NCBI GenBank assembly: GCA_023255625.1
Contig: JAHFLF010000001.1
Coordinates: forward strand, 185,766 to 249,765
Source of the DNA: Candidatus Harrisonbacteria bacterium
Lineage (GTDB): Bacteria > Patescibacteriota > Minisyncoccia > UBA6257 > 1-14-0-10-44-23
Reading direction: 5' to 3'
DNA: 64,000 nucleotides
The position numbers were made by a program, and so were the translations under genes. The notes beneath the pieces are model-generated. The model saw only the letters and a list, made by a program, of their open reading frames with translations. It was not told the origin of the DNA and ran no database searches. Positions 223-14,227 of the stretch are shown here, piece after piece. How positions within the stretch are numbered: the first letter of the stretch is position 1; each line of letters opens with the position of its first letter.

Positions 223-485
223 ATGGCTGTATTCTAGGCCTCCAGGTGAAGACGCGCAAGTTGTAGGTAATCTTTTTTGAAGGTATCATATACGCAACAA
301 CTTAATAGCAGTGTGACCTAACCTCTCCGAGCAATCGGGCAGCATGGTCTTAAGCCCTCAACAGTAAAAAGCTCCTAGTCAGAGCGCTGTTGAGGCCATA
401 TCGGGAAACTGGTATGGGTGCCGCAAGGCATCGCTGGCTGGGGGCTTTTTGTTCGTCAGCCAGCATAACGATTAAAAATATCATT

Positions 486-1205
486 ATGTTTGCACTCGTT
501 CTGATTTTGCTTTTCGTGGTGATCTGTTTGTTGGCAGCGGGCATTATGCGTCCCACCTCGCTGAACTGGGCGTTTAGGGGCAACAGTAGCCGAAAGAAGG
601 TGTTTTCTGTGTTCGGTCTGGGCGCAATAGTTCTGTTTATCATTTTGACCGTGATAACGCCGGGCAGTCAGGATAGCGCCGTCAGTGTCAGTTCGGCTCC
701 GGTTGCTTCGACACCTAGCAGCCCGGTTAGTCAGCCGGTCGCGCAAACTGATCAGCAGAAGCTGGAGGCCGTCGCGCGAGCTGCGTTGAGTGATAACGGC
801 GCCTTACAGGTTTCGTTCAAAGAGGCGGTTATTGAGAAGGACGACCCGATCCGGCCGAAGGGTTCAAGGTTTGTGACCGTTGATCTTAATACTGGTGATT
901 TTTTTAACAAGGACGAGTTCGTGCAAGATAGCAGCAAAGTTTCCTCTGCTATTTTCCAGAATGCCTTTCCGGTCAACGGCAGCTTCTATGATGTGCTGGT
1001 CCGCTATTTTGGTGCCACTAAAGATGCTTACGGCAACACCAAAGATGATCTCATCATGTCTTACACCATCGACCGGCCGACGGCCGCAAAAATCAACTGG
1101 CAAGGGTTTGATCGAGAGAGCCTGTGCTCGTTCCTAAAACAGGAAAGCTCCGCGCAAGGCGGCAATGCTTATGTTGGCTGCAACATGCTGGTGAATATTC
1201 AGTAA
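486..1205 (+). CDS. Hypothetical membrane-anchored protein (2 N-terminal TM helices, Ser/Pro/Val-rich linker, C-terminal soluble domain)
   Basis: ORF 390..1205. The internal Met at 486 (MFALVLILLFVVICLL...) starts the hydrophobic N-terminus. No recognisable family. Confidence 0.5.
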   Translation: MFALVLILLFVVICLLAAGIMRPTSLNWAFRGNSSRKKVFSVFGLGAIVLFIILTVITPGSQDSAVSVSSAPVASTPSSPVSQPVAQTDQQKLEAVARAALSDNGALQVSFKEAVIEKDDPIRPKGSRFVTVDLNTGDFFNKDEFVQDSSKVSSAIFQNAFPVNGSFYDVLVRYFGATKDAYGNTKDDLIMSYTIDRPTAAKINWQGFDRESLCSFLKQESSAQGGNAYVGCNMLVNIQ

Positions 1206-1247: not shown

Positions 1248-1736
1248 ATGGATAACCCTATTAGGATAGAAACGCTTGAGAAGGTATTAGATCGTCAAAT
1301 TGCGTGGATTGAGTCCGCAAATACCCGCACCGCTACTGCGATCACTCTTGCAACTGCGATGCTTGGCGTTCTTGCAGCTCTTAGTCCGGCAAAGGGGCTA
1401 CCATGGACGTGGCTACAGTGTCTTTTTGTAGGTCTTTCAGTTTTGAGCCTACTCCTCTGCTTGCTGATGTGCGTACTCGCCGTGTTCCCGCGCACCAAGG
1501 GGCCGGAAGACTCAATGATTTTTTTCGGACCGATTGCTAGGCGTGATCGCAAAGACTTTATTGCGGCAGCTAAAACGCTTACTGCTGAGGAGTATTCGCT
1601 CGATCTTGCAGCACAGGTCCACATAAATGCTCAGATCGCAAAAACAAAGTTTCGTTGGGTGCATTGGGCGATGCGAGCCTTCTTTGTCAGTATTTTGCCG
1701 TGGGTAGTGGCGGTTTACTTCTTTTATCAGGGTTGA
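1248..1736 (+). CDS. Small 3-TM membrane protein; candidate membrane effector partner of the downstream cyclase (Pycsar-type TM effector-like)
   Basis: 162 aa. Hydrophobic segments ATAITLATAMLGVLAAL, LFVGLSVLSLLLCLLMCVLAVF and FFVSILPWVVAVYFF. Its TGA stop lies 5 nt before the cyclase ATG, on the same strand. SD-like taggtgg sits upstream. Confidence 0.6.
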   Translation: MDNPIRIETLEKVLDRQIAWIESANTRTATAITLATAMLGVLAALSPAKGLPWTWLQCLFVGLSVLSLLLCLLMCVLAVFPRTKGPEDSMIFFGPIARRDRKDFIAAAKTLTAEEYSLDLAAQVHINAQIAKTKFRWVHWAMRAFFVSILPWVVAVYFFYQG

Positions 1737-1741
1737 TTTTT

Positions 1742-2437
1742 ATGAGCTTAGCTGATGACCTACGCAAAGAAGTCAGGGATATCTTTCAGGCTCGGTGGTA
1801 TGAACGAGAGGGCAGAGATGTTCCAGATACGGAAAATATCACCCTCAGCAATGAGGCCGTAACTTTAGACGGCACCGTCCTATACGCCGATCTTGTTGCG
1901 TCAACTACGCTCGTCAATTCACGAAGTTCTAAGTTTGCGGCGGAGATTTACAAAGCTTTTTTATATTGCGCAGCGAAAGTCATCCGAGAGAGCGATGGTG
2001 AGATTACGGCCTACGATGGAGACCGTATTATGGCCGTGTTTATGGGCGGCTATAAAAATACCAATGCGGCAAAGGCAGCTCTCCGGATTAACTGGTGCAT
2101 GGATGAACTAGTTAACCCTTTGATGAGAGACCAGTATCCCGATAAGGCTACGGACTCGTATCGAGCAGTTGTCGGTATCGATACTGGCAAGCTGTTTGTC
2201 GCGAAGACAGGCATCCGCGGTTCGAATGACTTGGTTTGGGTCGGTCGCGCGGCAAACTATGCGGCAAAACTTTGCGATCGTCGTCTTGCCAATTACAACA
2301 CATGGATTACCGCTGACGTCTATAACAAATTGGACGGAGTCGCTAAGATGACTTCTGGCGAACACATGTGGCATACAGCTACATGGGAGGTAAGCGGGCA
2401 AACTATTTATGGCTCTACTTGGCGGTGGGCCGCATAA
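1742..2437 (+). CDS. Minimal stand-alone class III nucleotidyl (adenylyl/guanylyl/pyrimidine) cyclase domain protein, PycC-like
   Basis: Internal start MSLADDLRKEV at 1742 within ORF 1655..2437. Cyclase homology-domain motifs: TVLYADLVASTTL (metal Asp), YDGDRIMAVF (second Asp), GIDTGKLFVAKTG, DLVWVGRAANYAAKL (Asn/Arg transition-state residues). 232 aa with no regulatory domains. Confidence 0.7.
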   Translation: MSLADDLRKEVRDIFQARWYEREGRDVPDTENITLSNEAVTLDGTVLYADLVASTTLVNSRSSKFAAEIYKAFLYCAAKVIRESDGEITAYDGDRIMAVFMGGYKNTNAAKAALRINWCMDELVNPLMRDQYPDKATDSYRAVVGIDTGKLFVAKTGIRGSNDLVWVGRAANYAAKLCDRRLANYNTWITADVYNKLDGVAKMTSGEHMWHTATWEVSGQTIYGSTWRWAA

Positions 2438-2444
2438 TGCGGGT

Positions 2445-4439
2445 TCATTTCTTAGCCTCGCTGATGGCTTTCGTAGCTTTTTCTTTCGCCGTCTTCTGTG
2501 CCTCACTATCAATTTTTCTGTATTCGGGCAGTATCCAAACGAAGAGCGGTATCAAGCATTCGGCTACACCTAAGCTTAGTACGAAATATCCCAGGTTAGG
2601 ATTGTCGGCCATGATTGTTTTGATGCCGAAATATGTAAGCGCAGCTCCGATGATCAAAACAGCTAGACCTTTTGCAAATAACCACCATCGCCTTCTACGC
2701 TTCTCTTCGCAATAAATCTGATCGATTAACACCGTCATCACAGCTGCACTATAGCCAGCCTCTTTTTTAAGATCGCCGCCCATCTCCTCAACTCGTCCCT
2801 CAAGCCTCTTCATTTCATCGTCAGCAGTCATTTTTTTGCGCTGGAAAGTCCGCCGGATCTCCAGCTGAAGCTCACTGTCATTCTTTGATTTCCCTGCCAT
2901 TCTCAGGCGACGCATTTTTGCTGCGAATTGTTGGATATCTTCGGTACTCAGTTCTTTCGCCCTTTCGTCTAGATCTAAAAGTGCATCTAAGTCCTCGAGT
3001 GTATATACGCGATCGCTCGCGTGAAGGTCCTCTCTGATGATGGTGCCAAACAATGGAATAAAGTTTTCGGGCTTGTGACCTGGTCCACCAGATGAAATCG
3101 CCAGTATTTGAACAAGGGTATCGATGCCAATCCAGGCCGGAGGTTTCGCTCCAGCCCATCGGGCCGCGAGAGTTTGCATGGGCCCGTCGGAACTTATGAT
3201 CCAAGACTTTGTCCCTCTTCCGCGCAGACACTCCAACACACTATCTAAGGCGGCGTCGTGGATGGTCGAATGCTTTGATTTTTCGTAATGTCTTTGAGCT
3301 TTCCATTCAGCTGCAATTTCAGTCTGCTTTTTTGTGTTCTTTCGTCCAGCTTCAGCAGCAATAGCGACTTCTGGATCTTCCAGCCTTACTATTTTTTCAT
3401 CTCCGATTTTATCTGGAGCATATTGTATGGAGTCAAAAAACCTCGTGAAACTTTCTTTATCTACACAACCACGTGCGAGTGCCGTTTTCAGAAATGGATC
3501 TCTCGCGTCTTCAATGACATCTAGTGAATAGTTGCCAATAGCTCTTAGTGCTTCGCCCCTCTTCCTTGCCACGACTGACTCATATTCATCTTCGGTTTCT
3601 CTTGTAACGTAAAAAGCTGCCTCGATGTGTTTGATAGAAGCTGCAAGAGCAGAAAATGCAGATGCGAGCCGGCTCTTCTCTAGTGCTGCGACGAAAAGAA
3701 CATTCGTATCAAGTAAAAGGCTGGAGCTTTTGAACTCGCTTATTGAAAGAGGGTCTGGTCCCGTTGCTGCTGTAACGAGCCGAGCGGATAGCATCGCTTG
3801 AGCAAATGACCATATCTGTTGCTCGACAGCGATATCTTCATGGTCGCGCAAAAAACTGTTGAAGCCATCGATAAGGTGTGTCTGGTCTTTTTCTAAATGA
3901 TACTCGCCGATGGACGTTGTAATGATATTTTTTATCTGCTCTGCGTCCGGTAGTTTCGCGGCCTCGCGCTTTAGACGCTTGGCCCAAACCTCACCGAACT
4001 TGCCAAAAAATGCAGTTGCAGCATTTTTAAACCACGCTCTCAATGTCGCCCGATCTATCTTCGTACCAAAATGCTTATCGAGGACGTGATCAATCCGTCG
4101 TTCAGCATTACTCAGATCTATTTTTATTCGCTCCGACTCCTCGCTCTTTAGAAACCAGAACTTCCCTTGCTTGATGACGACGCCTTTGTCTTTCAAAAAC
4201 TCTAGCCCACCTTGCACGTCTTGGGGTATGAGATTTCTAACACCAACGATACGCGCGGCTTCCGCGCTGATTTCTGTAAGCCGAGCCTTCTTCTCTGGCT
4301 GAAGGAACAAGATCTTCGTAATGATCTCAGCAAACGCACGCGTTTTTAGTGACCGCGTACCGGCATCGTAGTACAAATGTGTGGGTACTAATAACTCACG
4401 TAGCGACTCAATTTCCAATGATTTTTGCGCGTCATTCAT
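2445..4439 (-). CDS. Large hypothetical protein: N-terminal winged-helix-like region, PIN-like nuclease domain, long charged coiled-coil, C-terminal 2-TM anchor
   Basis: 664 aa. SSLLLDTNVLFVAALEKS (PIN N-terminal Asp motif) and SWIISSDGPMQ (C-terminal PIN-like Asp). C-terminus WWLFAKGLAVLIIGAALTYFGIK...LSLGVAECLIPLFVWILP is hydrophobic. Convergent with the cyclase operon. Confidence 0.5.
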   Translation of the reverse strand: MNDAQKSLEIESLRELLVPTHLYYDAGTRSLKTRAFAEIITKILFLQPEKKARLTEISAEAARIVGVRNLIPQDVQGGLEFLKDKGVVIKQGKFWFLKSEESERIKIDLSNAERRIDHVLDKHFGTKIDRATLRAWFKNAATAFFGKFGEVWAKRLKREAAKLPDAEQIKNIITTSIGEYHLEKDQTHLIDGFNSFLRDHEDIAVEQQIWSFAQAMLSARLVTAATGPDPLSISEFKSSSLLLDTNVLFVAALEKSRLASAFSALAASIKHIEAAFYVTRETEDEYESVVARKRGEALRAIGNYSLDVIEDARDPFLKTALARGCVDKESFTRFFDSIQYAPDKIGDEKIVRLEDPEVAIAAEAGRKNTKKQTEIAAEWKAQRHYEKSKHSTIHDAALDSVLECLRGRGTKSWIISSDGPMQTLAARWAGAKPPAWIGIDTLVQILAISSGGPGHKPENFIPLFGTIIREDLHASDRVYTLEDLDALLDLDERAKELSTEDIQQFAAKMRRLRMAGKSKNDSELQLEIRRTFQRKKMTADDEMKRLEGRVEEMGGDLKKEAGYSAAVMTVLIDQIYCEEKRRRRWWLFAKGLAVLIIGAALTYFGIKTIMADNPNLGYFVLSLGVAECLIPLFVWILPEYRKIDSEAQKTAKEKATKAISEAKK

Positions 4440-4678: not shown

Positions 4679-5137
4679 TTAGCGCTTCGCCCACTGCGGA
4701 GCACGGCGGGCTTTCTTGAGTCCGTATTTCTTGCGTTCAACATGGCGCGGATCGCGGGTCATGTGGCCGTCGCGGCGCTGGGCTTTGCGAAGTTCCGGAT
4801 CATGCGCAACCAGCGCGCGGGCAATACCATTTCTGACTGCATCTGCCTGGCCCATCATGCCACCGCCATACACATGCGCTGAAACTCCAACCGCATCCTG
4901 CATCTGTGCTGTGATGAGCGGCGCCATAACCGTTGCCTGCTGGCGAAGAGTTGGGAAATACTTTTTAAAATCCTTGCCGTTGACCGTGATACCTGAATGC
5001 TTTGGAAAAATACGCACCTGGGCTGAAGCCGTTTTACGGCCGCCGATGCCCTGCTTATAGCGACCAGTAAATCCGCCGTGCTTAGCCGGTGCTGCGTGCT
5101 CTGCCTTTACTTCTGATTTTGTTTGTTTTGTAACCAT
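4679..5137 (-). CDS. rpsI: 30S ribosomal protein S9
   Basis: C-terminus ...HVERKKYGLKKARRAPQWAKR and a conserved S9 core (GRKTASAQVRI, GGGMMGQADAVRNGIARAL). Confidence 0.9.
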   Translation of the reverse strand: MVTKQTKSEVKAEHAAPAKHGGFTGRYKQGIGGRKTASAQVRIFPKHSGITVNGKDFKKYFPTLRQQATVMAPLITAQMQDAVGVSAHVYGGGMMGQADAVRNGIARALVAHDPELRKAQRRDGHMTRDPRHVERKKYGLKKARRAPQWAKR

Positions 5138-5146
5138 GGTATTCGT

Positions 5147-5246
5147 TAATTTTCAATTTCTAATTTTCAATTTTCAAACAATGATTTAATTTCTAAATTG
5201 ATACATTGGAAATTGTTTAGAAATTAGAAATTGAGAATTGAAAATT
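5147..5246. repeat. AT-rich palindromic intergenic element (family R2), copy 1
   Basis: aattttcaatttctaattttcaattttcaaacaatg...cattggaaattgtttagaaattagaaattgagaattgaaaatt. The two arms are reverse complements. Near-identical copies at 23912-23998 and 62656-62764. Confidence 0.7.
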
Positions 5247-5607
5247 ACCTCTCTATCTTAAGTCTATTCATCCTCACCTGCCGCAGTTTATTCTTCGGCA
5301 GCATGTTAAACACGGCATACTCAACAATGCGCTCCGGGGTGCGCTTACGCATCTCCTCTACCGGCTTTTCGCGCAAGTGGCCCTGGTAACTGGTGTGATG
5401 ATAATACATCTTATCTGTCTCTTTTTTACCGGAAAACTTTACCTTTGCCGCATTCTTCACAATCACGCGATTGCCGCCAGCAAGGCGCGGCTCATACGCG
5501 GCCGAGGTCTTGCCCTGCAGAATGGCAGAAATCTTCGTGGCTAAGCGGCCAACGATTTGGCCCTCTGCATCAATCACAAATTCTTTTATCTTTTCTTTTG
5601 TTTCCAT
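5245..5607 (-). CDS. rplM: 50S ribosomal protein L13
   Basis: VIDAEGQIVGRLATKISAILQGK...MYYHHTSYQG... is the L13 core. Start at the second Met (METKEK) is preferred; the ORF extends to 5634. Confidence 0.9.
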   Translation of the reverse strand: METKEKIKEFVIDAEGQIVGRLATKISAILQGKTSAAYEPRLAGGNRVIVKNAAKVKFSGKKETDKMYYHHTSYQGHLREKPVEEMRKRTPERIVEYAVFNMLPKNKLRQVRMNRLKIER

Positions 5608-5655
5608 ATTTCTATTCGCGATATTACTCTTCAATTCGCGTTATTAGCGATTACT

Positions 5656-5997
5656 CTATACGAATTCAATCGTCGCCATCTTAGTTCCATCGCGCATCCG
5701 CTGAACAGCATGCTTACTAATCCGCAGATAACCGCCGGTGCGATCCTTATACTTCGGTGCAATCTCATAAAAAAGTTTTTCAGCCGCCCCCTTCGGCAGA
5801 TTTGCCAGAAGCATACGCAGCTTGGCAACCTGGCCCGTTTTTGCATAACTAATATAGCGTTCAACCAAAGGCCGAATGTCTTTTGCCCGCGCCTCGGTTG
5901 TAACCATCTGCCCGTACATAATCAAACTGGTCGCAAGTTGTTTGCGAAAAGCTCGACGGCGTCCGGTGGTTCTGGCAAATTTTCTTTGGGAAACCAT
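5656..5997 (-). CDS. rplQ: 50S ribosomal protein L17
   Basis: RKFARTTGRRRAFRKQLATSLIMYGQMVTTEARAKDIRPLVERYIS... has L17 family features. Position after rpoA matches the alpha operon. Confidence 0.9.
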   Translation of the reverse strand: MVSQRKFARTTGRRRAFRKQLATSLIMYGQMVTTEARAKDIRPLVERYISYAKTGQVAKLRMLLANLPKGAAEKLFYEIAPKYKDRTGGYLRISKHAVQRMRDGTKMATIEFV

Positions 5998-6001
5998 AAA
6001 T

Positions 6002-6070
6002 TCAGTTAGTCAGTTAGTTGGTTAGTCAGTTAGTTGGCGGGATGATTTTCGGTTTTAGCTGACTAACTTT
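6002..6070. repeat. GTTAGTTRG micro-repeat hairpin (family R1), copy between rplQ and rpoA
   Basis: ttcagttagtcagttagttggttagtcagttagttggcgg...ttttagctgactaactttttt. Inverted arms gttagtcag / ctgactaac. Confidence 0.6.
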
Positions 6071-6071
6071 T

Positions 6072-6896
6072 TTACTCTTTCTTTTTGCTTTTCTTCTTCG
6101 GCTTTTTCTCAACCTCCGCTTCACTCTCACCTACGGCTGGAGCGGACTCGATTGCGGCTGCGCCACCAAGCTGATCAAAGGCCTTTGTAAAGTGTTCGGC
6201 AAGAATTGCCAGCGCCTGACGCAAAGCCATAGACGGAGACATGCCGCCGTCGGTCTCAATCACCAAACGGGCGCGGTTAAAGTCTGTCTGATCACCCACG
6301 CGCATATTCTCGGTGGTCATCGTAACCTTAGTCACCGGAGAAAATAAAGCATCAATCTGTATAACGCCGACGGCCACTGATCCGCCCTGCTTGACCGTTT
6401 CAACCGGAACATAACCAAAACCCTTTTCGATGGTCAGCTCGATTTCAAGCTCAACGCCTTTTTTGGTAATCGTCGCAATTTTTTGTTCTTTATTCACAAC
6501 AGAAACCCGGCCGCTCTCACTGATATCAGCCGCCGTAACCTCTCCCTCACCCTTTGCTTTAAGAGTTAGCGTTTCTGGCTCAGTGAAACCGGAATCACCC
6601 GGAAACTGGAAGCGCACATTCTTTAGATTCAACATAATCTCGACTACATCCTCCATAACTCCTTCGATAGTCGAAAACTCGTGCAAAACTCCCTTGATCT
6701 TCATCTGTGTTATAGCGGCTCCGGGCAAGGAAGAAAGCAGCACGCGACGCAGCGCATTGCCTATGGTCAAACCATAACCGCGATATAAACCGTCAATATC
6801 AAAAACCCCAACTTTCTCGTTTTCCGAAACCGTCACCACCTTCAAATTTTCTGCTAATGAAATTTTATCCATGAGTATATAATTACTATTTGACAA
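6072..6896 (-). CDS. rpoA: DNA-directed RNA polymerase alpha subunit
   Basis: GYGLTIGNALRRVLLSSLPGAAITQMKIKGVLHEFSTIEGV... is the alpha N-terminal-domain signature. Start may be the internal Met at 6872. Lys-rich C-terminal tail; short overall (274 aa). Confidence 0.9.
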   Translation of the reverse strand: MSNSNYILMDKISLAENLKVVTVSENEKVGVFDIDGLYRGYGLTIGNALRRVLLSSLPGAAITQMKIKGVLHEFSTIEGVMEDVVEIMLNLKNVRFQFPGDSGFTEPETLTLKAKGEGEVTAADISESGRVSVVNKEQKIATITKKGVELEIELTIEKGFGYVPVETVKQGGSVAVGVIQIDALFSPVTKVTMTTENMRVGDQTDFNRARLVIETDGGMSPSMALRQALAILAEHFTKAFDQLGGAAAIESAPAVGESEAEVEKKPKKKSKKKE

Positions 6897-7509
6897 TCTT
6901 TGAATAATAATCTACTACCAAGGAAATGTCAAAACCGGCATCAAGATCCTTCGGTAACATTTTCACTGTACCCTGCAAAGTTTGCGGATTAATCGTCAGC
7001 CAATTCGGCTGCTGAAGTTTAGCAAACCGCTCGGCAACATCCTTGAAAATCTGGAGATCTTTTGACTGCGGCCGGATCGTAACCGTGTCCCCTACTTTTA
7101 TGAGCATGGAGGGGGCAGATCCGCGGCGGCCATTCACGAAGATATGACCATGGCCAACTGCTTGGCGGGCGACGGAACGAGAAGGAGCAAAACCCATCCG
7201 GAAAACAACATTGTCCAGACGCCGCTCGAGCAAAGAAAGCATTTCCTGACCAGTCGGCAGCTTACTCTTATTGGCCTTGGCAAAGGTATTGCGCAGCTGT
7301 TTCTCGCGCAGACCATAGGTATATTTTATCTTCTGCTTCTCGGTCAGCTGCTTGCCAAATTCTGAACCGGCGCGGCGGCGTGAAGCCCCGTGCTGACCTG
7401 GTCGATTTGGCCGGCGGGTAATTGCAGATTTACCGGTCGCGCTACGGAACGGCTTTAAAAACAGGGGCATTCCGAGACGGCGTTCTTTTCTGGCTCTGGT
7501 ATCAAACAT
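6886..7509 (-). CDS. rpsD: 30S ribosomal protein S4
   Basis: RPGQHGASRRR...KQKIKYTYGLREKQLRNTF...LERRLDNVVFRMGFAPSRSVARQAVGHGHIFVNGRR. Confidence 0.9.
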   Translation of the reverse strand: MFDTRARKERRLGMPLFLKPFRSATGKSAITRRPNRPGQHGASRRRAGSEFGKQLTEKQKIKYTYGLREKQLRNTFAKANKSKLPTGQEMLSLLERRLDNVVFRMGFAPSRSVARQAVGHGHIFVNGRRGSAPSMLIKVGDTVTIRPQSKDLQIFKDVAERFAKLQQPNWLTINPQTLQGTVKMLPKDLDAGFDISLVVDYYSKIVK

Positions 7510-7512
7510 GGA

Positions 7513-7612
7513 ATTAGTTACAAGTTTTAAAGTTTATCAAGTTGTAAAGTTGGGGAATGCGTCATCTTGTTTTCCTTGATGAACTTGAAAAACTTGATGA
7601 ACTTTATGAACT
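7513..7612. repeat. Intercistronic repeat family R3 (AAGTTTATCAAGTT / TTGATGAACTTGAAAAACTTGATGAACTT), copy 1
   Basis: agttacaagttttaaagtttatcaagttgtaaagttgg...ttgatgaacttgaaaaacttgatgaacttt. Arms are partly reverse-complementary. Copies at 8069-8170 and 20666-20768. Confidence 0.65.
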
Positions 7613-7613
7613 C

Positions 7614-8066
7614 TTAAATTCTCCGGACTTTCCTCGGTTTAGGACCGTTATGCGGAATCGGAGTTACATCGTGGATAGATAATACATCAAACCCCTGATT
7701 CACAAAGGAGCGGACGCTGGAATCCCGACCGCCGCCGATGCCATTTAAGAAGATGCTAACTTTTTGCAGTCCGGCCTTGCGCAGCTTTTCAGTCAAAGCC
7801 GAGACAACCTTACTGGCAGCGAACGGAGTTGCTTTTTTTGGCCCGCGAAAACCCAGACTGCCGGCGGTGCTCCAGGCCACCAAATTTCCCTTCTCATCAG
7901 TAACTGAAATAATTGTGTTGTTGTAGCTGGCCTTAACATAGACATTACCCCGATCAAATTTCTTGGTAACGGATTTTGCCGAGGTTGCCGCAACAGCACC
8001 CTCGATGGCGCTGGCCTGCCCTATTGCCTCTGCGTCAGTTTGTGTGCCGACTTTTTTCTTACCCAT
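7614..8066 (-). CDS. rpsK: 30S ribosomal protein S11
   Basis: NVYVKASYNNTIISVTDEKGN...GFRGPKKATPFAA...GGGRDSSVRSFVNQGFDVLSIHDVTPIPHNGPKPRKVRRI. Confidence 0.9.
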   Translation of the reverse strand: MGKKKVGTQTDAEAIGQASAIEGAVAATSAKSVTKKFDRGNVYVKASYNNTIISVTDEKGNLVAWSTAGSLGFRGPKKATPFAASKVVSALTEKLRKAGLQKVSIFLNGIGGGRDSSVRSFVNQGFDVLSIHDVTPIPHNGPKPRKVRRI

Positions 8067-9238: not shown

Positions 9239-10948
9239 TTACTGAATTATCACGGCAATCTTATCTAAATCAGACGGCACGGTATGCACATAAAATGGCT
9301 TGAGCGTAACTTTGCCGCCGCTAATTCCTTCAATCGCAAACACGAGCGCATTGAGTTGTGTATCCGGTTGACCGGCCAGTTTCTGGGCGATGTCGACAGC
9401 AGAAACAATCCGCGACAGCGAGACATCGTACTTAATAGGAACTGACATTCGGCCGGAGCCAAGAGCAATCGTCTTTGGATTTAGGGTACCGTAAACTAGA
9501 GTATCGCTGTCTACCTTAAAATCTTTACCAATCGCGTTTTTTAAGCGCTGCGTCAGTAGTAGTCGTAAATCACTTTCTCGGAAAGCCAGAATGCTTAACT
9601 GTGCTTCAGTAACCACGCCGACAGTTCCGTCGCTAGCCGAGACCGATTCAACGACCTGCTTGAGTACCGTTACCTTGGTCGCGCCCGGCAAAACCTTAAA
9701 CTCCGCAGGCACGCTACCGGCTATTTTCTGCTGCAACTGCTCGGTAACAGTTTTTATCCCCTGTTCTTTCGCGGCAACAACATCTTTTTCAGTCGGCACA
9801 CTCGTCTCGCCAACAAACCCGCCGCTGGCGCCTTCTTTGAGCTCGCCGTAAAAACCATCATATTTGGGCGTTTTCAAAAATCCAGGAATCGTCAATTTGG
9901 CCGTCTGGCCCAAATTAGCTTCGGCGCCGGGTTTATCTGCAACTACGGGGACCGAAATTGTCGATGGTATAATCTTGCCATTTTCAATTTTTGCACCAGG
10001 AATAATTAACGGACTGGCAGTTCTAAAGATAATTCCCGCTGGAGTTACAAAACGAGTATTAGCAACAATGCTTTGCGGCTGCGAACTGTAACCGTTGTAA
10101 ACGGTTAAATTAGCCGTCGCCTTGATACTGACATATTTTTTACCGGTAGCCGGTACGCGTTTTGTAAAGCTATCTCGCACAACAAAAATCTGTCCCGGCG
10201 CACGGCTGCCAGATTCATCAATGCTCGTCAGGGCCTTATCAATGCCGATTGAACCATCGAAGCTCCAATTTTTTTTCTCGGTTACCACCGTTATCTCTGC
10301 GTGCGGTAAAACAGCGGCGGCCACATACGAGACGATTGCCAGTCCGACAATTATCGCGCCGGAAATTAAAAATAAAATTTTACGGCGGGAGCGCCGGTTT
10401 GGGCGGATTGGTTCACCTTGTGTCCGGCGCATAACATCGCTTTTAGTAGCTCTGGCCGGCGCGGCTTGAATGAAACTCACATCCGGCTCTGCACTATCCC
10501 CATCAGGAGTCAGCTCGTTCTCCGGTTCTGAATCACGCGAAACTCTCCGAGAAGCAGCCGGCTCTGCCCGACTCCGAGTCGCGCGACGCGGCCGCTCTTC
10601 ATTTTCTGGAACAACTTGGACGCGTACTGAACGACTCCGGCCGGCCCTCGGCTTCGCTGATTTTGTGCCAGTTGCCCCATCATCCCCAACCACCGCCTGC
10701 TCTATGATACCCAGGCCGGATCTGGCGGCGCGCTCGCGAATGCCAAGATCGGTAGTTTCAATAATGACCTCGCGTTTGAGAAGAGAGGCCTCGCGTTTAA
10801 GTAATTTAAAATTATTCAGCAGCTGGCCAAAAATTGCGCCGGGAGCAATCTCAAAAATAACCTGCTCGGACTCGGCGTCAATTAATTGCTCAACAACGAA
10901 GGCGACATCGTCGCTGCGTTTTACAGAAATATGAATTGGTTCAGCCAT
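9239..10948 (-). CDS. Hypothetical protein with Arg/Ser-rich disordered region, single TM anchor and large beta-rich extracytoplasmic domain
   Basis: 569 aa. RAGRSRSVRVQVVPENEERPRRATRSRAEP... is low complexity. ILFLISGAIIVGLAIVSYVAAAVL is a TM segment. No family recognised. Confidence 0.5.
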   Translation of the reverse strand: MAEPIHISVKRSDDVAFVVEQLIDAESEQVIFEIAPGAIFGQLLNNFKLLKREASLLKREVIIETTDLGIRERAARSGLGIIEQAVVGDDGATGTKSAKPRAGRSRSVRVQVVPENEERPRRATRSRAEPAASRRVSRDSEPENELTPDGDSAEPDVSFIQAAPARATKSDVMRRTQGEPIRPNRRSRRKILFLISGAIIVGLAIVSYVAAAVLPHAEITVVTEKKNWSFDGSIGIDKALTSIDESGSRAPGQIFVVRDSFTKRVPATGKKYVSIKATANLTVYNGYSSQPQSIVANTRFVTPAGIIFRTASPLIIPGAKIENGKIIPSTISVPVVADKPGAEANLGQTAKLTIPGFLKTPKYDGFYGELKEGASGGFVGETSVPTEKDVVAAKEQGIKTVTEQLQQKIAGSVPAEFKVLPGATKVTVLKQVVESVSASDGTVGVVTEAQLSILAFRESDLRLLLTQRLKNAIGKDFKVDSDTLVYGTLNPKTIALGSGRMSVPIKYDVSLSRIVSAVDIAQKLAGQPDTQLNALVFAIEGISGGKVTLKPFYVHTVPSDLDKIAVIIQ

Positions 10949-10969
10949 GTTAAAATTTTCGGCCCGGTC

Positions 10970-12112
10970 TTAGGAATGGACTACATCGTGCTGTGCGGCA
11001 ATCCAGCGAGCCCTTTGTCTGGCAGTTTTGCCAACCAATGACTCGTGTGAACCGGCGCAAACACGACGAACTAGAGCCAGCGCCGTATCGTATGACGGAA
11101 TCAAACCGCCGCGCGGCACGCTCCGATTATATTGTACCACAAGCCCGCGGGAGCCAGCCGGATTTTCGTCTGTCAGAATCGTATAATTTCCGGAAACGCC
11201 CAGCCGCTTCAATAATCGATCGTGATTAAGCAGCGCCGGCAGGGCGGTTACGCTATGCACGAAGACCGGCAAACCGCGCCGATTGCGATGCGCCTCTATT
11301 GTATGCATAAGCACAGAAAATTCTGCTTCAAGCGCCCGCTCTATCTGATTCGCAACTGCATCTGAACATTGCCCGGCGGCATACCGATCAATCAGCGCCG
11401 ATGCGACAGTAACCGGTAAACCAAAAGGTGCGACGACCCCGGCGAACATCCCACCGCTCCCCCACTGCACAGTATCGCGATAAGTGACGGCTCCGCCTAC
11501 GAGAGAATAGACTATAGTTTGCCGCTCACCGATCTCTAGAAACAACGCCTCGTCTTTGACTAAAGCCGCGGCGTATCCGGCCCAAAAACCGGTTCGCTCC
11601 GTCACAGACATTATTTTATCTGCAGAAAGCAGATTTAAAATTTCCTGCCACGGCTCGCTGCGAATAAAGGTTGCCCGCAAAAGACAATCAACAACATGGG
11701 AACGAAAACCAACCGGACTAATAACTCGGTGTCCATCTAGTTTAAGCTGCGCGACATCTATATCTGCTAGCCGGAGCTGCAATTCATTTACGCCGAGTAA
11801 TTTTGCGGCTAAACTGCGATCGCGCTGAAAAAGTTTCCAAACTCCGTGCCGCACTATATTTTCCAGTTCAGAAACTGTAATTTCCGCATTCCAGTCCGGC
11901 CTTGTCAGCGCAACACTCTGCTGGATAAGCACCGCATCCTTTGTATCAAATACAAGAATATATTGAGCATCTTCCAGAATGGTCTTGGCGGATAAAAATT
12001 GCTCAAGATCTCTGGCAAACCCACCGCCGGTTTCTGCGCTGCGTGTCATTTGGTTTTGTTTATCAACGGAGATAATTCCGTCAGCGCGGACGCTGATAAT
12101 CACATAGCGCAT
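10970..12112 (-). CDS. Hypothetical protein (possibly actin-like ATPase fold, PilM/FtsA-like); function unknown
   Basis: ORF 10970..12208. Internal Met (MRYVIISVRADGIISVDKQ) at 12112 preferred. Fold assignment is weak. Confidence 0.4.
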   Translation of the reverse strand: MRYVIISVRADGIISVDKQNQMTRSAETGGGFARDLEQFLSAKTILEDAQYILVFDTKDAVLIQQSVALTRPDWNAEITVSELENIVRHGVWKLFQRDRSLAAKLLGVNELQLRLADIDVAQLKLDGHRVISPVGFRSHVVDCLLRATFIRSEPWQEILNLLSADKIMSVTERTGFWAGYAAALVKDEALFLEIGERQTIVYSLVGGAVTYRDTVQWGSGGMFAGVVAPFGLPVTVASALIDRYAAGQCSDAVANQIERALEAEFSVLMHTIEAHRNRRGLPVFVHSVTALPALLNHDRLLKRLGVSGNYTILTDENPAGSRGLVVQYNRSVPRGGLIPSYDTALALVRRVCAGSHESLVGKTARQRARWIAAQHDVVHS

Positions 12113-12193
12113 GAAATTTGCATAAAACTCAAATACGACGAATCGCTGGCTCGAACCGGCGCTTGGCGCTTGTTTTTCGCAGGTTTCTTTCAT

Positions 12194-14227
12194 ATGATTA
12201 GTGTACATCAGTTCTTAATTAACAACGCCAAAATTCTCATGCTTGTAAAAATATCCAGAATTTTCATCTATGCCGCGCTCGTCACGCCTATCTTTTTAAA
12301 TCGCTCCCTTTTTTTCCCGTTCATTTCCGGAAAACAAATATTTTTCCGAGTTTGCGTTGAAGCGGCGCTTGGTTTTTTTCTTTTACATCTGGCTGTCATA
12401 CTTTTTAACCGCAACTCAACCCGCATCAAAACAACGCTGGCCGGACTCAAGCATCATCTGAGCCACCCGATTATAATTTGTCTGGCCATCTTTGCGTTCG
12501 GTTTTGTTATCTCTACCCTCTTCAGTCAAAGTCCGACTGCAGCGTTTTGGTCAAACTACGAACGCGGAGACGGCGCCTTCCAAATTCTCCATTATGTCCT
12601 CTTCGCCATCTTAATAAAAATCCTTTTCACCGAGGAGCGGTTGCTGGCACGGTTAATAATCACAAATATCGTAGTGAGTATTCCGGTTTGTTTTTATGCG
12701 CTAGCTCAAATGCTGGCTGATCCAAGTAACACCACTATCCTTTCCGCAGGCAGCCGAGTTTCCGGAACGCTTGGCAACCCCTCTTATTTGGCTGGCTATT
12801 TAATTTTTAACATATGTTTCATGGTCTACTTTCTGCTTCGCAGCAAAGATACTTTGGTACAAATAGGCCTTGGCTTATTAACCGCGTTGCAAATCTTTCT
12901 GATTATTAAAGCGCAGACGATTGGAGCGGCGCTGGGTATTTTTATCGGACTCGTAGTTTTTGCTATCCATCTAGCATTAACCACCAAAGATAAACGGATT
13001 AAGAAAATCGGCCTGTATGTTGGCGGCGCAGCCGTGGCCTTTACTCTAATTTTCTTTGCGACCAGGAGCGCTCCTTTCTGGCAGAAAGTCCCACTATTTG
13101 AACGCATTACAAATATCAGCCAGGCCTATGAGAATTTAAAACCGCGGCTCTGGGCCTGGAATAGTGCGGTATCCGGTTTTAAAGAAAAACCAATTATAGG
13201 ATGGGGTCTGGAAAACTTCCCTTATGCTTTTGATAAATATTACGATGCCCGTCATTTCGGCCGTGAATCATTCTTTGATCGCACGCACAATTTATTCCTG
13301 GAGTATCTGATTGGCGGCGGACTGCTCTCCTTTATACCTTGGCTGTTAGTCTTTTTCTTCTATTACCGAGGGTTGCGTAAACGGCCGACTTCAATTTGGA
13401 AAAGTATTCTCGTTGCCATGCCGGCTATTTATCTAGTGCAGGGATTCGTTTTATTTGATGTCTTGAGTATCTATCTTCCGCTTTTCCTGCTGCTCATTTT
13501 TGTCGTGAGCACAAATGATCCGCAAAAACACGAACCCCAAATTACCGGCAGAGAAAACCTAAAATTTTCGGGCTTGAATTATCTATCGACAGGACTTATC
13601 TCCATAGCAATTCTGACACTGATATATACCACAAGCTATCTGCCGCTACGCCGCAACCAGCTAATTATAACGGCGCTCGGCGGGGCGGCAGGTTTAATGA
13701 ACGAGGTCTCGAACCGAAATGACGGCAAGCTCACCAAAACCCCAGCAGAGGTTATCGAACTTTTCCATAACGCGATTGACTACCGTTCTCCGGTCGGCAG
13801 GAGTGAGGCGATTGAAATGTATCAAAAATTCGTCCTGGATCTGCTTACTGCCGTAAGCCAAATTCCGGATATAACCAAAAATGAAAACGCGAAGCGCGAC
13901 ACGGAAATGATTTTGGCCGATGTTAACGATTATGTTGATCAAAATGAAAATCTAACTCCCGGCGTTAAAACCCTTTTCATTAATGCCGGCTTGAATATCA
14001 AAATGGGCGTGCTCTTCAAAATGCCGAAAAACATAGAACGCGGCCGAAAAATTAGCGAGGAAAAATTAGCGATAGCACCGAATCGAATAGAGCTAATTAA
14101 TCTGCTTATACAGCTCGCCCAAGATACAAATGATAAAGTACTGCTGTCGAAATGGGCGCCGATTGCCGTATCGCTACGACCGGATTTGTACAAGATTACA
14201 CCGGCAACTACGACCAGTATTCGCTAG
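12194..14227 (+). CDS. O-antigen ligase/polymerase-like (Wzy_C-type) polytopic membrane protein with C-terminal soluble domain
   Basis: Start MISVHQFLINN at 12194 within ORF 11999..14227. About 10-12 hydrophobic helices, then a roughly 230-aa hydrophilic tail. Typical architecture of O-antigen ligase family proteins. Confidence 0.5.
   Translation: MISVHQFLINNAKILMLVKISRIFIYAALVTPIFLNRSLFFPFISGKQIFFRVCVEAALGFFLLHLAVILFNRNSTRIKTTLAGLKHHLSHPIIICLAIFAFGFVISTLFSQSPTAAFWSNYERGDGAFQILHYVLFAILIKILFTEERLLARLIITNIVVSIPVCFYALAQMLADPSNTTILSAGSRVSGTLGNPSYLAGYLIFNICFMVYFLLRSKDTLVQIGLGLLTALQIFLIIKAQTIGAALGIFIGLVVFAIHLALTTKDKRIKKIGLYVGGAAVAFTLIFFATRSAPFWQKVPLFERITNISQAYENLKPRLWAWNSAVSGFKEKPIIGWGLENFPYAFDKYYDARHFGRESFFDRTHNLFLEYLIGGGLLSFIPWLLVFFFYYRGLRKRPTSIWKSILVAMPAIYLVQGFVLFDVLSIYLPLFLLLIFVVSTNDPQKHEPQITGRENLKFSGLNYLSTGLISIAILTLIYTTSYLPLRRNQLIITALGGAAGLMNEVSNRNDGKLTKTPAEVIELFHNAIDYRSPVGRSEAIEMYQKFVLDLLTAVSQIPDITKNENAKRDTEMILADVNDYVDQNENLTPGVKTLFINAGLNIKMGVLFKMPKNIERGRKISEEKLAIAPNRIELINLLIQLAQDTNDKVLLSKWAPIAVSLRPDLYKITPATTTSIR

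What the first reader, a model, noticed from the sequence alone, without database searches (positions are those of the whole stretch)
1248..2437. Two-gene operon: small 3-TM protein plus minimal class III nucleotidyl cyclase (Pycsar-like candidate anti-phage signalling module)
Seen in sequence:
- A 232-aa protein (1742-2437) carries all hallmark cyclase-homology-domain motifs (metal-binding Asp in TVLYADLVASTTL and in YDGDRIMAVF; GIDTGK; VGRAANYAAKL) and nothing else.
- It sits 5 nt after the stop of a 162-aa protein with three hydrophobic helices, on the same strand.

Established knowledge:
- Pycsar systems pair a stand-alone class III cyclase (PycC) with a membrane or TIR effector.
- CBASS uses CD-NTases instead, so class III plus TM points to Pycsar.

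Unusual points (inference):
- The putative effector precedes the cyclase.
- At 162 aa it is too short to contain a canonical cNMP-binding domain. It could therefore be a divergent or novel effector type, or a non-defence signalling pair.

The locus lies in a 4.4 kb accessory stretch immediately next to the conserved ribosomal operon.
Basis: partly seen in the sequence, partly recalled or inferred. Interest (0 to 1): 0.8.

Follow-up and report, generated by a model that had tools for sequence, protein, structure and literature searches.

The report
Ordinary Pycsar anti-phage gene pair

Summary
A 162-aa protein with three hydrophobic helices (1248-1736, +) is followed 5 nt later by a 231-aa cyclase (1742-2437, +).

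Both proteins match known Pycsar families:
- The cyclase matches PADLOC's PycC model end to end (E 8e-93).
- It is 51% identical to the solved uridylate cyclase BcPycC (PDB 7r65). Both metal-binding aspartates and BcPycC's three UTP-selecting residues are conserved.
- The small protein passes Pfam's PycTM (PF18967) threshold and matches PADLOC PycTM/2TM effector models over its full length.

The two "unusual points" are not unusual:
- In all 80 related genome loci the effector gene sits directly upstream of the cyclase (57 PycTIR, 19-20 PycTM).
- PycTM relatives are typically 158-175 aa and lack a canonical cNMP-binding domain.

The "accessory stretch" claim holds. In close relatives rpsI is followed directly or variably by tsaD. 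In this genome the island extends past the window's left edge to two integrases.

The host is a Patescibacteria (CPR) bacterium.

Verdict: a new member of a known kind, of low interest.

Two side observations may deserve more attention:
- An unannotated 664-aa wHTH-PIN-membrane protein next door, whose relatives keep defence-island company.
- A LOOT RNA at 315-432, which consistently precedes genes for exported or membrane-anchored proteins.

The parts
1248..1736 (+). pycTM: 162-aa Pycsar membrane effector (PF18967 family)
   Evidence: Pfam PycTM 60.7 bits, above the gathering score of 27.2. PADLOC 2TM effector PDLC00711 E 8.4e-47 and PycTM PDLC02364 E 5.2e-36, both full length. Relatives all carry PF18967.
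1329..1391 (+). hydrophobic helix 1 (aa 28-48), the weakest of the three
   Evidence: Kyte-Doolittle 19-residue mean 1.72. It is the C-terminal part of AF2 helix 3-44.
1410..1487 (+). hydrophobic helix 2 (aa 55-80)
   Evidence: Kyte-Doolittle peak 2.87; AF2 helix 55-79.
1488..1664 (+). conserved, basic, predicted cytoplasmic segment (aa 81-139) with the family motifs FPRTKGP and DLxxQxHxNAxIAxxKxxW; inferred nucleotide-sensing module
   Evidence: Invariant or near-invariant positions P81, R82, T83, G85, P86, S89, D119, L120, Q123, H125, N127, A128, I130, A131, K134, W137. 10 Lys/Arg against 1 in the short loop on the opposite side. The ligand-binding role is inference only.
1665..1727 (+). hydrophobic helix 3 (aa 140-160)
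   Evidence: Kyte-Doolittle 1.82. It is the C-terminal part of AF2 helix 113-161.
1742..2437 (+). pycC: 231-aa stand-alone class III-type pyrimidine cyclase, clade B-like (predicted uridylate cyclase)
   Evidence: PADLOC PycC PDLC00766 E 7.7e-93, positions 1-230 of 232. PDB 7r65 (BcPycC) E 2.1e-61 over residues 2-230. 51% identity by BLASTP.
1883..1891 (+). codons for Y48-A49-D50: Y48 corresponds to BcPycC Y50 (UTP selection) and D50 to BcPycC D52 (metal-binding Asp 1)
   Evidence: Alignment to 7r65. Residue roles from PMC11224242. Y48 and D50 are invariant in 81 of 81 clade members.
2015..2026 (+). codons for D92-G93-D94-R95: D92 and R95 correspond to BcPycC D94 and R97 (UTP selection); D94 is metal-binding Asp 2
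   Evidence: Alignment to 7r65. All three are invariant in 81 of 81.
2430..2442 (+). short GC hairpin (CCGCATAATGCGG) overlapping the pycC stop codon, between the convergent genes; a possible weak terminator
   Evidence: Terminator-like match in a consensus scan. Low confidence: 11 such sites were found against 5.0 +/- 2.2 expected in the region.

Best explanation
[quoted passage not shown] PycC (1742-2437) is a stand-alone class III-type cyclase of the BcPycC-like clade B. On phage infection it would cyclise UTP to 3',5'-cUMP. The trigger is unknown for every Pycsar system. PycTM (1248-1736) would sense the nucleotide and then compromise the membrane, so the infected cell stops growing or dies before phage are released (abortive infection). 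PycTM is a three-helix membrane protein whose N-terminal helix and conserved basic loop (aa 81-139) are predicted to face the cytoplasm.

Shown here:
- family membership of both proteins;
- intact catalytic and UTP-selecting residues;
- tight operon architecture identical to 80 related loci;
- location in a variable, integrase-bearing island.

Inferred, not shown:
- the product (cUMP);
- the ligand-binding site in PycTM;
- membrane disruption;
- the anti-phage phenotype.

The neighbouring 664-aa and 263-aa genes are not part of the system.
For: Cyclase:
- PADLOC PycC models PDLC00766 (E 7.7e-93) and PDLC02367 (E 6.6e-90) match end to end.
- The best solved relative is 7r65 (E 2.1e-61, residues 2-230), at 51% identity.
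- 7r65 is BcPycC, a clade B cyclase (PMC11224242). B. cepacia PycC is used as the cUMP-producing enzyme in PMC9117128.
[quoted passage not shown] The metal-binding Asp pair D50/D94, N172 and K176 are also conserved. Y48, D50, D92, D94, R95 and N172 are invariant in 81 of 81 clade members and K176 in 80 of 81.
- The N-terminal helix reported as a PycC hallmark aligns as well (residues 2-20).

Effector:
- Pfam PycTM is above its gathering score. Several PADLOC PycTM and 2TM effector models match over the full length.
- All 21 relatives found carry PF18967; 20 of them are 158-175 aa.

Architecture:
- 5-nt gap, same strand.
- In 80 of 80 genome loci of the closest cyclase relatives, a same-strand ORF ends right at the cyclase start. 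It is PycTIR (CNBD+TIR) in 57, PycTM in 19-20, and a second cyclase in 2.
- A cUMP-making PycC paired with a cUMP-responsive PycTM has been shown to be toxic and to protect against phage T2 (Anabaena system; PMC11224242).

Accessory status:
- The pair is absent from the same position in the three closest relatives.
- Two Phage_integrase genes lie 2-5 kb beyond the window's left edge on another assembly of the same locus.
- The same gene arrangement recurs in independent assemblies.
Against: - There is no experimental evidence for this locus or this host.
- The Pfam Guanylate_cyc match is below threshold (12.8 against 21.9 bits). This is typical of the clade: nearly all homologues lack that precomputed annotation.
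- The cyclase is only 51-60% identical to anything else in the databases, so product specificity is extrapolated from conserved residues.
- No PycTM of this subfamily paired with a clade B cyclase has been tested, as far as I could establish.
- GC content does not mark the island as foreign.
- No sigma-70-like promoter was detected upstream, so the transcription unit is undefined. It may include the 263-aa gene 42 nt upstream.
Confidence: 0.9

Rival explanations
1. It is the same two-gene defence architecture, but the cyclase makes a different nucleotide. Candidates are cGMP, as in the recently described 'Pucsar' offshoot that also uses TIR and TM effectors, or cCMP.
For: A 2026 preprint abstract describes Pycsar-related cyclases that make 3',5'-cGMP and pair with TIR or TM effectors. 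The window cyclase is at most 60% identical to any other protein. Specificity has not been measured.
Against: All three residues reported to select UTP in BcPycC (Y50, D94, R97) are identical here and invariant across 81 clade members. The residues used by the cCMP-making clade E (F100, R142, Q144 in EaPycC) and by the cUMP-making clade D (F60, K104, F109) differ from these. BcPycC, the closest solved relative, makes cUMP. I could not read the Pucsar preprint, so its diagnostic residues remain untested.
Confidence: 0.1
2. It is a non-defence, housekeeping cyclic-nucleotide signalling pair: a membrane sensor or channel plus an adenylate/guanylate cyclase.
For: The class III cyclase fold is shared with housekeeping adenylate cyclases (weak PDB matches with E between 6e-5 and 0.1). 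JGI annotates homologues as 'class 3 adenylate cyclase'.
Against: The pair is missing from the syntenic position in the closest relatives and lies in an integrase-bearing variable hotspot. The best matches are all Pycsar-specific models, with E-values about 90 orders of magnitude better than the generic cyclase domain. Partners in related loci are PycTIR or PycTM, not sensory domains.
Confidence: 0.03
3. The system is larger than two genes. The convergent 664-aa PIN-like membrane protein and/or the upstream 263-aa protein are functional components, for example a second effector or a sensor.
For: Physical proximity: 7 nt separate the convergent stop codons, and the upstream gene is 42 nt away on the same strand. 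The four genes travel together in all assemblies of this genome. Relatives of the 664-aa protein occur next to defence genes.
Against: Neither protein has a homologue in any of the 80 related PycC loci. The 664-aa gene is on the opposite strand, and its relatives occur without Pycsar. No known Pycsar variant needs a third gene, judging from the literature read.
Confidence: 0.05
4. It is a decaying, non-functional remnant carried by a degraded mobile element.
For: The host is a reduced-genome organism. The island's left part contains integrases and many small ORFs of unknown function.
Against: Both ORFs are full length. Every invariant family position is retained, including the catalytic residues. 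Identical sequences were recovered from several independent assemblies.
Confidence: 0.04

Closest known systems
BcPycC-BcPycTIR Pycsar of Burkholderia cepacia LK29 (clade B; PDB 7r65)
   Same: The cyclase has the same length and fold family, is 51% identical, and shares the metal-binding and UTP-selecting residues. The predicted messenger is the same, cUMP. In the 57 related loci with a PycTIR partner, that gene also sits directly upstream of the cyclase.
   Different: The effector here is a 162-aa PycTM membrane protein, not a ~302-aa CNBD+TIR NADase. The predicted killing mechanism is therefore membrane damage rather than NAD+ depletion.
AnPycC-AnPycTM Pycsar of Anabaena sp. (clade D; PMC11224242)
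   Same: It follows the same logic: a cUMP-making cyclase plus a cUMP-responsive transmembrane effector. That system was shown to be toxic and to protect against phage T2 in E. coli.
   Different: AnPycC is a clade D enzyme with a C-terminal zinc ribbon and different nucleotide-selecting residues (F60, K104, F109). In the PDB search it matches the window cyclase only weakly: 8jsz 'uridylate cyclase', which I take to be AnPycC, at E 5.8e-4.
EcPycC-EcPycTM Pycsar of E. coli (clade E, cCMP)
   Same: A two-gene cyclase plus TM effector abortive-infection system.
   Different: Clade E cyclases make cCMP, and the solved clade E enzyme EaPycC selects CTP with F100, R142 and Q144. The window enzyme carries the clade B residues Y, D and R instead.
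Liu-DS6 'clade F' Pycsar (PMC13069673)
   Same: The gene order is PycTM first, then PycC. The paper calls this 'a typical Pycsar system'.
   Different: That cyclase belongs to a separate, newly named clade and sits in a five-gene operon with a type IV Thoeris system. The window cyclase is clade B-like and stands alone.
CBASS systems with transmembrane effectors
   Same: They use a nucleotide second messenger that activates a membrane-disrupting effector and causes abortive infection (established knowledge).
   Different: CBASS uses CD-NTase enzymes and cyclic oligonucleotides. Only PycC models matched the window cyclase in PADLOC; no CD-NTase model did. Several PADLOC models named 'Effector, 2TM' matched the small protein; I did not trace which system each of them comes from.

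Membership tests
Pycsar system | A cyclase belonging to the PycC clades of class III-type nucleotide cyclases | tested here: met
   PADLOC PDLC00766 E 7.7e-93 and PDLC02367 E 6.6e-90, full length. 51% identity to BcPycC, PDB 7r65.
Pycsar system | Intact catalytic residues: two metal-binding Asp, plus the Asn and basic residue of the GxxxNxAxK/R motif | tested here: met
   D50, D94, N172 and K176 align with BcPycC and with photoactivated adenylate cyclase. They are invariant in the 23-sequence alignment and invariant or nearly so in 81 clade members (K176 in 80 of 81).
Pycsar system | The N-terminal helix extension reported as a PycC hallmark | tested here: met
   Residues 2-20 (SLADDLRKEVRDIFQARW) align without gaps to BcPycC residues 2-19. 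The hallmark is described in PMC11224242. This was judged by sequence alignment only, not from a structural model of the cyclase.
Pycsar system | An adjacent effector gene with a TM or TIR domain in the same operon | tested here: met
   The PF18967 PycTM gene ends 5 nt upstream on the same strand. The arrangement is identical in 19 of 19 related PycTM loci.
Pycsar system | The cyclase produces a cyclic pyrimidine mononucleotide (cUMP or cCMP) | not testable with these tools
   Predicted to be cUMP from Y48, D92 and R95, which match BcPycC Y50, D94 and R97. Confirmation needs an enzyme assay with LC-MS.
Pycsar system | Confers phage resistance by abortive infection | not testable with these tools
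   Needs heterologous expression and phage challenge.
Pycsar system | Accessory, defence-island-like genomic location | tested here: met
   Absent from the rpsI-tsaD junction in three close relatives. Integrases lie nearby. The neighbouring PIN-like gene family also occurs beside R-M and Schlafen-like genes.
PycTM (Pfam PF18967) | Score at or above the Pfam gathering threshold | tested here: met
   60.7 bits against 27.2.
PycTM (Pfam PF18967) | Family-typical size and conserved motifs (FPRTKGP; DLxxQxHxNAxIAxxKxxW) | tested here: met
   Of the 21 relatives, 20 are 158-175 aa and one is 230 aa; all carry PF18967. The motifs are invariant or nearly so in the alignment, and the window protein has them.
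PycTM (Pfam PF18967) | Binds the cognate cNMP and disrupts the membrane | not testable with these tools
   No solved structure resembles the model. The binding site is inferred from conservation only.
Canonical CNBD-containing Pycsar effector (PycTIR type) | A cNMP_binding (PF00027) domain fused to the effector domain | tested here: not met
   No PF00027 hit at E<=1 in the 162-aa protein. By contrast, 55 of 61 non-PycTM partners in related loci have PF00027 plus TIR. The window effector is the PycTM type, not this type.
Housekeeping class III adenylate/guanylate cyclase (Pfam PF00211) | Guanylate_cyc domain at or above the gathering score | tested here: not met
   12.8 bits against 21.9. Matches to solved adenylate cyclases have E between 6e-5 and 0.1, against 2e-61 for BcPycC.
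CBASS | A CD-NTase signalling enzyme | tested here: not met
   Only PycC models match the cyclase in PADLOC; there is no CD-NTase match.

The most novel reading that the evidence does not exclude
The short PycTM would sense cUMP through an all-helical, juxtamembrane module. That module is built from its N-terminal amphipathic helix and the conserved FPRTKGP / DLxxQxHxNAxIAxxK segment. It would be a cyclic-nucleotide receptor fold with no solved relative and no relation to the canonical CNBD. This compact copy from a CPR episymbiont, with a confident model (pLDDT 91.7), would be a tractable example. If so, an abortive-infection suicide switch is being kept in a reduced genome (largest contig about 0.6 Mb).
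Probability: 0.4. Interest if true: 0.4.

Novelty: new member of a known kind. Interest (0 to 1): 0.18.

Why it matters
For the finding itself, very little. Standard defence-system annotators (PADLOC, and by design DefenseFinder) would call this locus a Pycsar system, and every feature flagged as odd is the family norm.

Its modest value is as a data point:
- A complete clade B-like Pycsar with a PycTM effector is carried as cargo at a variable hotspot beside the ribosomal protein operon of a Patescibacteria (CPR) bacterium.
- That lineage's phage-defence repertoire is little studied. No paper in the searched library that mentions Pycsar dealt with it in CPR bacteria.
- Two neighbouring features found in passing are less well understood and may repay follow-up more than the Pycsar pair: the unannotated wHTH-PIN-membrane protein family, and the LOOT RNA with its consistent position.

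Tried and rejected
- **P0004 fusion idea.** P0004 (396 aa, about 162+231) looked like a possible natural PycTM-PycC fusion. Its sequence is a degenerate tandem-cyclase ORF, not a fusion, so I dropped it.
- **Composition.** GC content and skew do not distinguish the island from its flanks.
- **Promoter and terminator scan.** No + strand promoter-like site lies upstream of the operon, and the number of promoter-like sites equals the chance expectation. It was uninformative, and CPR promoters may not fit the consensus. The AGGTGG just before the pycTM ATG is only 1 nt from it, so I make no Shine-Dalgarno claim.
- **Papers I could not read.** The original Pycsar paper (Tal et al. 2021) was not held under its DOI or under the PMC id I recalled for it. 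The Pucsar preprint was not held either. Clade definitions therefore come from PMC11224242, and the Pucsar rival could not be tested at residue level.
- **Extra system components.** No homologue of the 664-aa or 263-aa neighbour occurs in the 80 PycC loci.
- **Loose LOOT pattern.** A loose pattern scan of viral contigs gave 79 hits, but 78 fail the LOOT base-pairing test and are chance matches.
- **NCBIfam.** Nothing matched either Pycsar protein.
- **Organism names.** The cluster look-up gave none. The host was inferred from RpoA relatives instead.
Full report
**1. The observation**

- The small protein runs from ATG 1248 to a stop ending at 1736, giving 162 aa.
- The cyclase runs from ATG 1742 to a stop ending at 2437, giving 231 aa.
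- Both are on the + strand, 5 nt apart. All four quoted cyclase motifs are in the translation.
- A longer alternative ORF starts at TTG 1655 but is not the real start: M1 is invariant in 23 homologues that all begin MSLxDDL.

The small protein has three hydrophobic stretches: aa 28-48, about 55-80, and 140-160. An AlphaFold2 model built on 22 family members is confident (mean pLDDT 91.7). It shows three long helices (3-44, 55-79, 113-161) plus two short ones (93-98, 101-109). The hydrophobic stretches are the membrane-embedded parts of the long helices.

**2. What the two proteins are**

*The cyclase.*
- It matches PADLOC's Pycsar cyclase models end to end: PDLC00766 at E 7.7e-93 and PDLC02367 at E 6.6e-90.
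- The generic Pfam Guanylate_cyc domain scores only 12.8 bits, below its 21.9-bit threshold.
- Against all PDB sequences the best match is 7r65 (E 2.1e-61, residues 2-230 of 231), at 51% identity.
- PMC11224242 identifies 7r65 as BcPycC, the clade B pyrimidine cyclase of Burkholderia cepacia LK29. It names Y50, D94 and R97 as the UTP-recognition residues. PMC9117128 uses B. cepacia PycC as the enzyme that makes cUMP.
- In the alignment these residues correspond to Y48, D92 and R95 of the window protein. The two metal-binding aspartates are D50 and D94. All five are present.
- Across the window protein and 80 related genomic copies, Y48, D50, D92, D94, R95 and N172 are invariant in 81 of 81, and K176 in 80 of 81.
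- The clade E (cCMP) and clade D (cUMP) enzymes use different selector residues. The window enzyme therefore belongs with clade B, and I predict cUMP as its product. This prediction is an inference.

*The small protein.*
- It scores 60.7 bits on Pfam PF18967 'PycTM, Pycsar effector protein', against a gathering score of 27.2.
- It matches PADLOC effector models over its full length: PDLC00711 '2TM' at E 8.4e-47 and PycTM PDLC02364 at E 5.2e-36.
- It has no cNMP_binding domain.
- Its 21 relatives in a 5.8-billion-protein collection all carry PF18967. Twenty of them are 158-175 aa and one is 230 aa.
- The family alignment shows strongly conserved soluble motifs: FPRTKGP directly after helix 2, and DLxxQxHxNAxIAxxKxxW before helix 3. 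R16 and W20 in the N-terminal helix are conserved too.
- The aa 81-139 segment carries 10 Lys/Arg, against 1 in the short loop between helices 1 and 2. By the positive-inside rule (established knowledge), the N-terminus and this segment face the cytoplasm.
- I infer that together they form the nucleotide-sensing module. No solved structure resembles the model, so this stays untested. That gap applies to the whole family, not just this copy.

**3. Are the 'unusual points' unusual?**

No. I fetched 80 loci encoding the closest cyclase relatives from species-representative genomes.
- In all 80, a same-strand ORF ends within a few bases of the cyclase start.
- That ORF is a PycTM of this subfamily in 19 loci.
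- It is a PycTIR-type protein of about 302 aa in 57 loci (PADLOC PycTIR; 55 of them show Pfam cNMP_binding plus the CAP12/Pycsar TIR domain).
- It is a more distant PycTM in one locus and a second cyclase in two.
- No locus has the effector downstream.
- A 2026 paper describes 'a transmembrane protein (PycTM) and a cyclase (PycC)', in that order, as 'a typical Pycsar system' (PMC13069673).

Effector type is interspersed within the clade. The window cyclase is equally distant (54%) from TM-paired and TIR-paired cyclases. Its nearest neighbour is TIR-paired, and nearest-neighbour effector type agrees in 65 of 81 cases. This fits the known modular swapping of effectors.

**4. Surroundings**

*Host.* RpoA lacks the C-terminal domain (266 aa; only PF01000 and PF01193). 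Its nearest named relatives are Candidatus Harrisonbacteria and 'Patescibacteria group' bacteria at 56-67% identity, with unnamed relatives at 73-85%. The exact proteins sit on a 601,890-bp NCBI contig. The host is therefore a CPR/Patescibacteria bacterium.

*Accessory status.* In three relatives the order infA-rpsM-rpsK-rpsD-rpoA-rplQ-rplM-rpsI is conserved, but what follows rpsI varies.
- In one relative tsaD follows directly (L084).
- In another, three small ORFs come before tsaD (L083).
- In the third, six ORFs do (L085).
- In the window genome rpsI is followed by the 664-aa gene, pycC, pycTM and a 263-aa gene. Another assembly of the same locus continues with a 268-aa gene, a 128-aa gene, an integrase, a 125-aa gene and a second integrase.

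So the 'accessory stretch' is real. It is longer than 4.4 kb, and it runs off the left edge of the window. GC content does not mark it out.

*Neighbours.* Neither neighbouring gene has a homologue in any of the 80 PycC loci, so the system is just the two genes.

**5. Mechanism**

The best-supported model is the published Pycsar mechanism (PMC11224242).
- Infection activates PycC by an unknown trigger.
- The cyclic pyrimidine, here predicted to be cUMP, activates PycTM.
- PycTM impairs membrane integrity, and the infected cell dies or arrests before releasing phage.
- An Anabaena cUMP cyclase plus PycTM pair has been shown to be toxic and to protect against phage T2.

For this locus, family membership, catalytic integrity, operon structure and accessory location are shown. 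The product, ligand binding, membrane damage and phenotype are inferred.

**6. Rivals**

- *A different product.* A 'Pucsar' offshoot that makes cGMP and uses TIR or TM effectors is described in a 2026 preprint. I could read only its abstract. The identical UTP-selector residues argue against this reading, but it cannot be excluded without an assay.
- *Housekeeping signalling pair.* Contradicted by the variable location and by the Pycsar-specific matches.
- *Larger system.* Contradicted.
- *Decayed remnant.* Contradicted by full-length ORFs that retain every invariant family position.

**7. Noticed in passing**

*(a) The convergent 664-aa gene (2445-4439, - strand).*
- It belongs to an unannotated family: 491 cluster representatives at E<=1e-3, 201 of them at E<=1e-30, most about 660 aa.
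- Its invariant residues (D244-T245-N246 in 'LLDTNVL', E285, H394-D395, D483) resemble a PIN nuclease active site.
- Pfam PIN_3 matches only below threshold, in 11 of 36 members. No PADLOC model matches the window protein, and only scattered weak hits occur in a few family members.
- Its AlphaFold2 model (pLDDT 89.4) shows an N-terminal winged helix, an alpha/beta core, a single helix of about 90 residues and a further long C-terminal helix. A hydrophobic hairpin within those helices (about aa 575-640) is my reading of the sequence and two weak family matches, not a computed result.
- Foldseek finds only local matches, to wHTH regulators and to a chain of a Mycobacterium tuberculosis toxin-antitoxin complex (7vwo_A), which I read as the PIN-type toxin.
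- Of six relatives whose contexts I sampled, three sit beside defence genes: type I R-M with an AbiJ_NTD4 protein, a Schlafen/AlbA_2 ATPase, and a MazG-like gene with a SLFN-g3 helicase. One sits beside an integrase and a PemK toxin. Two are on short, uninformative contigs.
- It is a candidate stand-alone defence gene.

*(b) The LOOT RNA.*
- A full-length LOOT RNA (Rfam RF03000, 79.4 bits against a gathering score of 46.4) lies at 315-432 on the + strand.
- It is absent from the syntenic region of relatives.
- Ten further true copies were found: one in a temperate-phage-like viral contig and nine in metagenome contigs sharing a 23-nt block. Each lies immediately 5' of a same-strand ORF wherever downstream sequence exists.
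- Including the window copy, all seven readable downstream ORFs encode unrelated proteins with an N-terminal signal peptide or membrane anchor. None is near Pycsar genes.
- The similarity 'MGxARxRWLGAFC' at the start of two of these ORFs is encoded by the RNA itself. The 3' hairpin shows compensatory changes. The window's downstream gene therefore more likely starts at ATG 486 than at 414.

**8. Verdict**

It is a new member of a known kind, with no unusual architecture. Interest is low (0.18). The neighbouring PIN-like family and the LOOT context are the less-explained items.

Noticed in passing
window 2445-4439 (- strand): A 664-aa protein convergent with pycC, with 7 nt between the stop codons. 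It belongs to an unannotated family of 491 cluster representatives, most about 660 aa. The model shows an N-terminal winged helix, a PIN-like core and two very long C-terminal helices that appear to contain a hydrophobic hairpin. Invariant residues are D244-T245-N246, E285, H394-D395 and D483. It has no PADLOC family, and Pfam PIN_3 matches only below threshold. Relatives sit beside type I R-M with AbiJ_NTD4, a Schlafen/AlbA_2 ATPase, a MazG-like gene with a SLFN helicase, or an integrase with PemK. It is a candidate uncharacterised single-gene defence protein and is not a Pycsar component.
   Followed up: partly
window 315-432 (+ strand): A full-length LOOT RNA (Rfam RF03000, 79.4 bits), the only Rfam hit in the 64 kb window. 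Ten other true copies were found: L118 in a temperate-phage-like contig, and L175-L183. Each lies directly 5' of a same-strand ORF wherever sequence is available. Including the window copy, all 7 readable downstream ORFs encode unrelated proteins with an N-terminal signal peptide or TM anchor. This looks more like a 5' leader than a free-standing sRNA. The sample is biased, because the nine metagenome copies were found through a shared exact 23-mer.
   Followed up: partly
window 414-1205 (+ strand), more likely 486-1205: The ORF just upstream of pycTM (42-nt gap) encodes a protein with an N-terminal membrane anchor and a Ser/Pro-rich linker. It has only a weak phage-family match (phrog_8263, E 2e-5). 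Its annotated first 13 residues are encoded by the LOOT RNA's 3' hairpin, so the true start is probably ATG 486. It has no homologue in the 80 PycC loci.
   Followed up: partly
beyond the left edge of the window (Logan contig from SRR14366772; no DNA available): The same locus on another assembly continues leftward with 268-aa and 128-aa ORFs, a 386-aa Phage_integrase, a 125-aa ORF, a 313-aa Phage_integrase and then an aminotransferase. The Pycsar pair is therefore probably cargo of an integrated element at the rpsI-tsaD hotspot. The island's left boundary and att sites could not be examined.
   Followed up: partly
window 4679-8066 and relatives L083-L085: RpoA is only 266 aa and lacks the alpha C-terminal domain (no PF03118). 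rplM-rpsI directly follow rplQ, so they are joined to the rpoA cluster. Both features are shared with the closest relatives.
   Followed up: no
window 9239-12208 (- strand): Two large ORFs (569 and about 407-412 aa) next to infA have no Pfam family, yet they are conserved in synteny in all three relatives examined, at 553-563 aa and 403-409 aa. They are lineage-specific conserved unknowns beside the ribosomal cluster.
   Followed up: no
L034, L035, L063 (related PycC loci): A few loci of this clade carry two tandem PycC genes rather than effector plus cyclase. P0004 (396 aa) is a degenerate fusion of two cyclase copies. This suggests occasional tandem duplication and decay of the cyclase.
   Followed up: no
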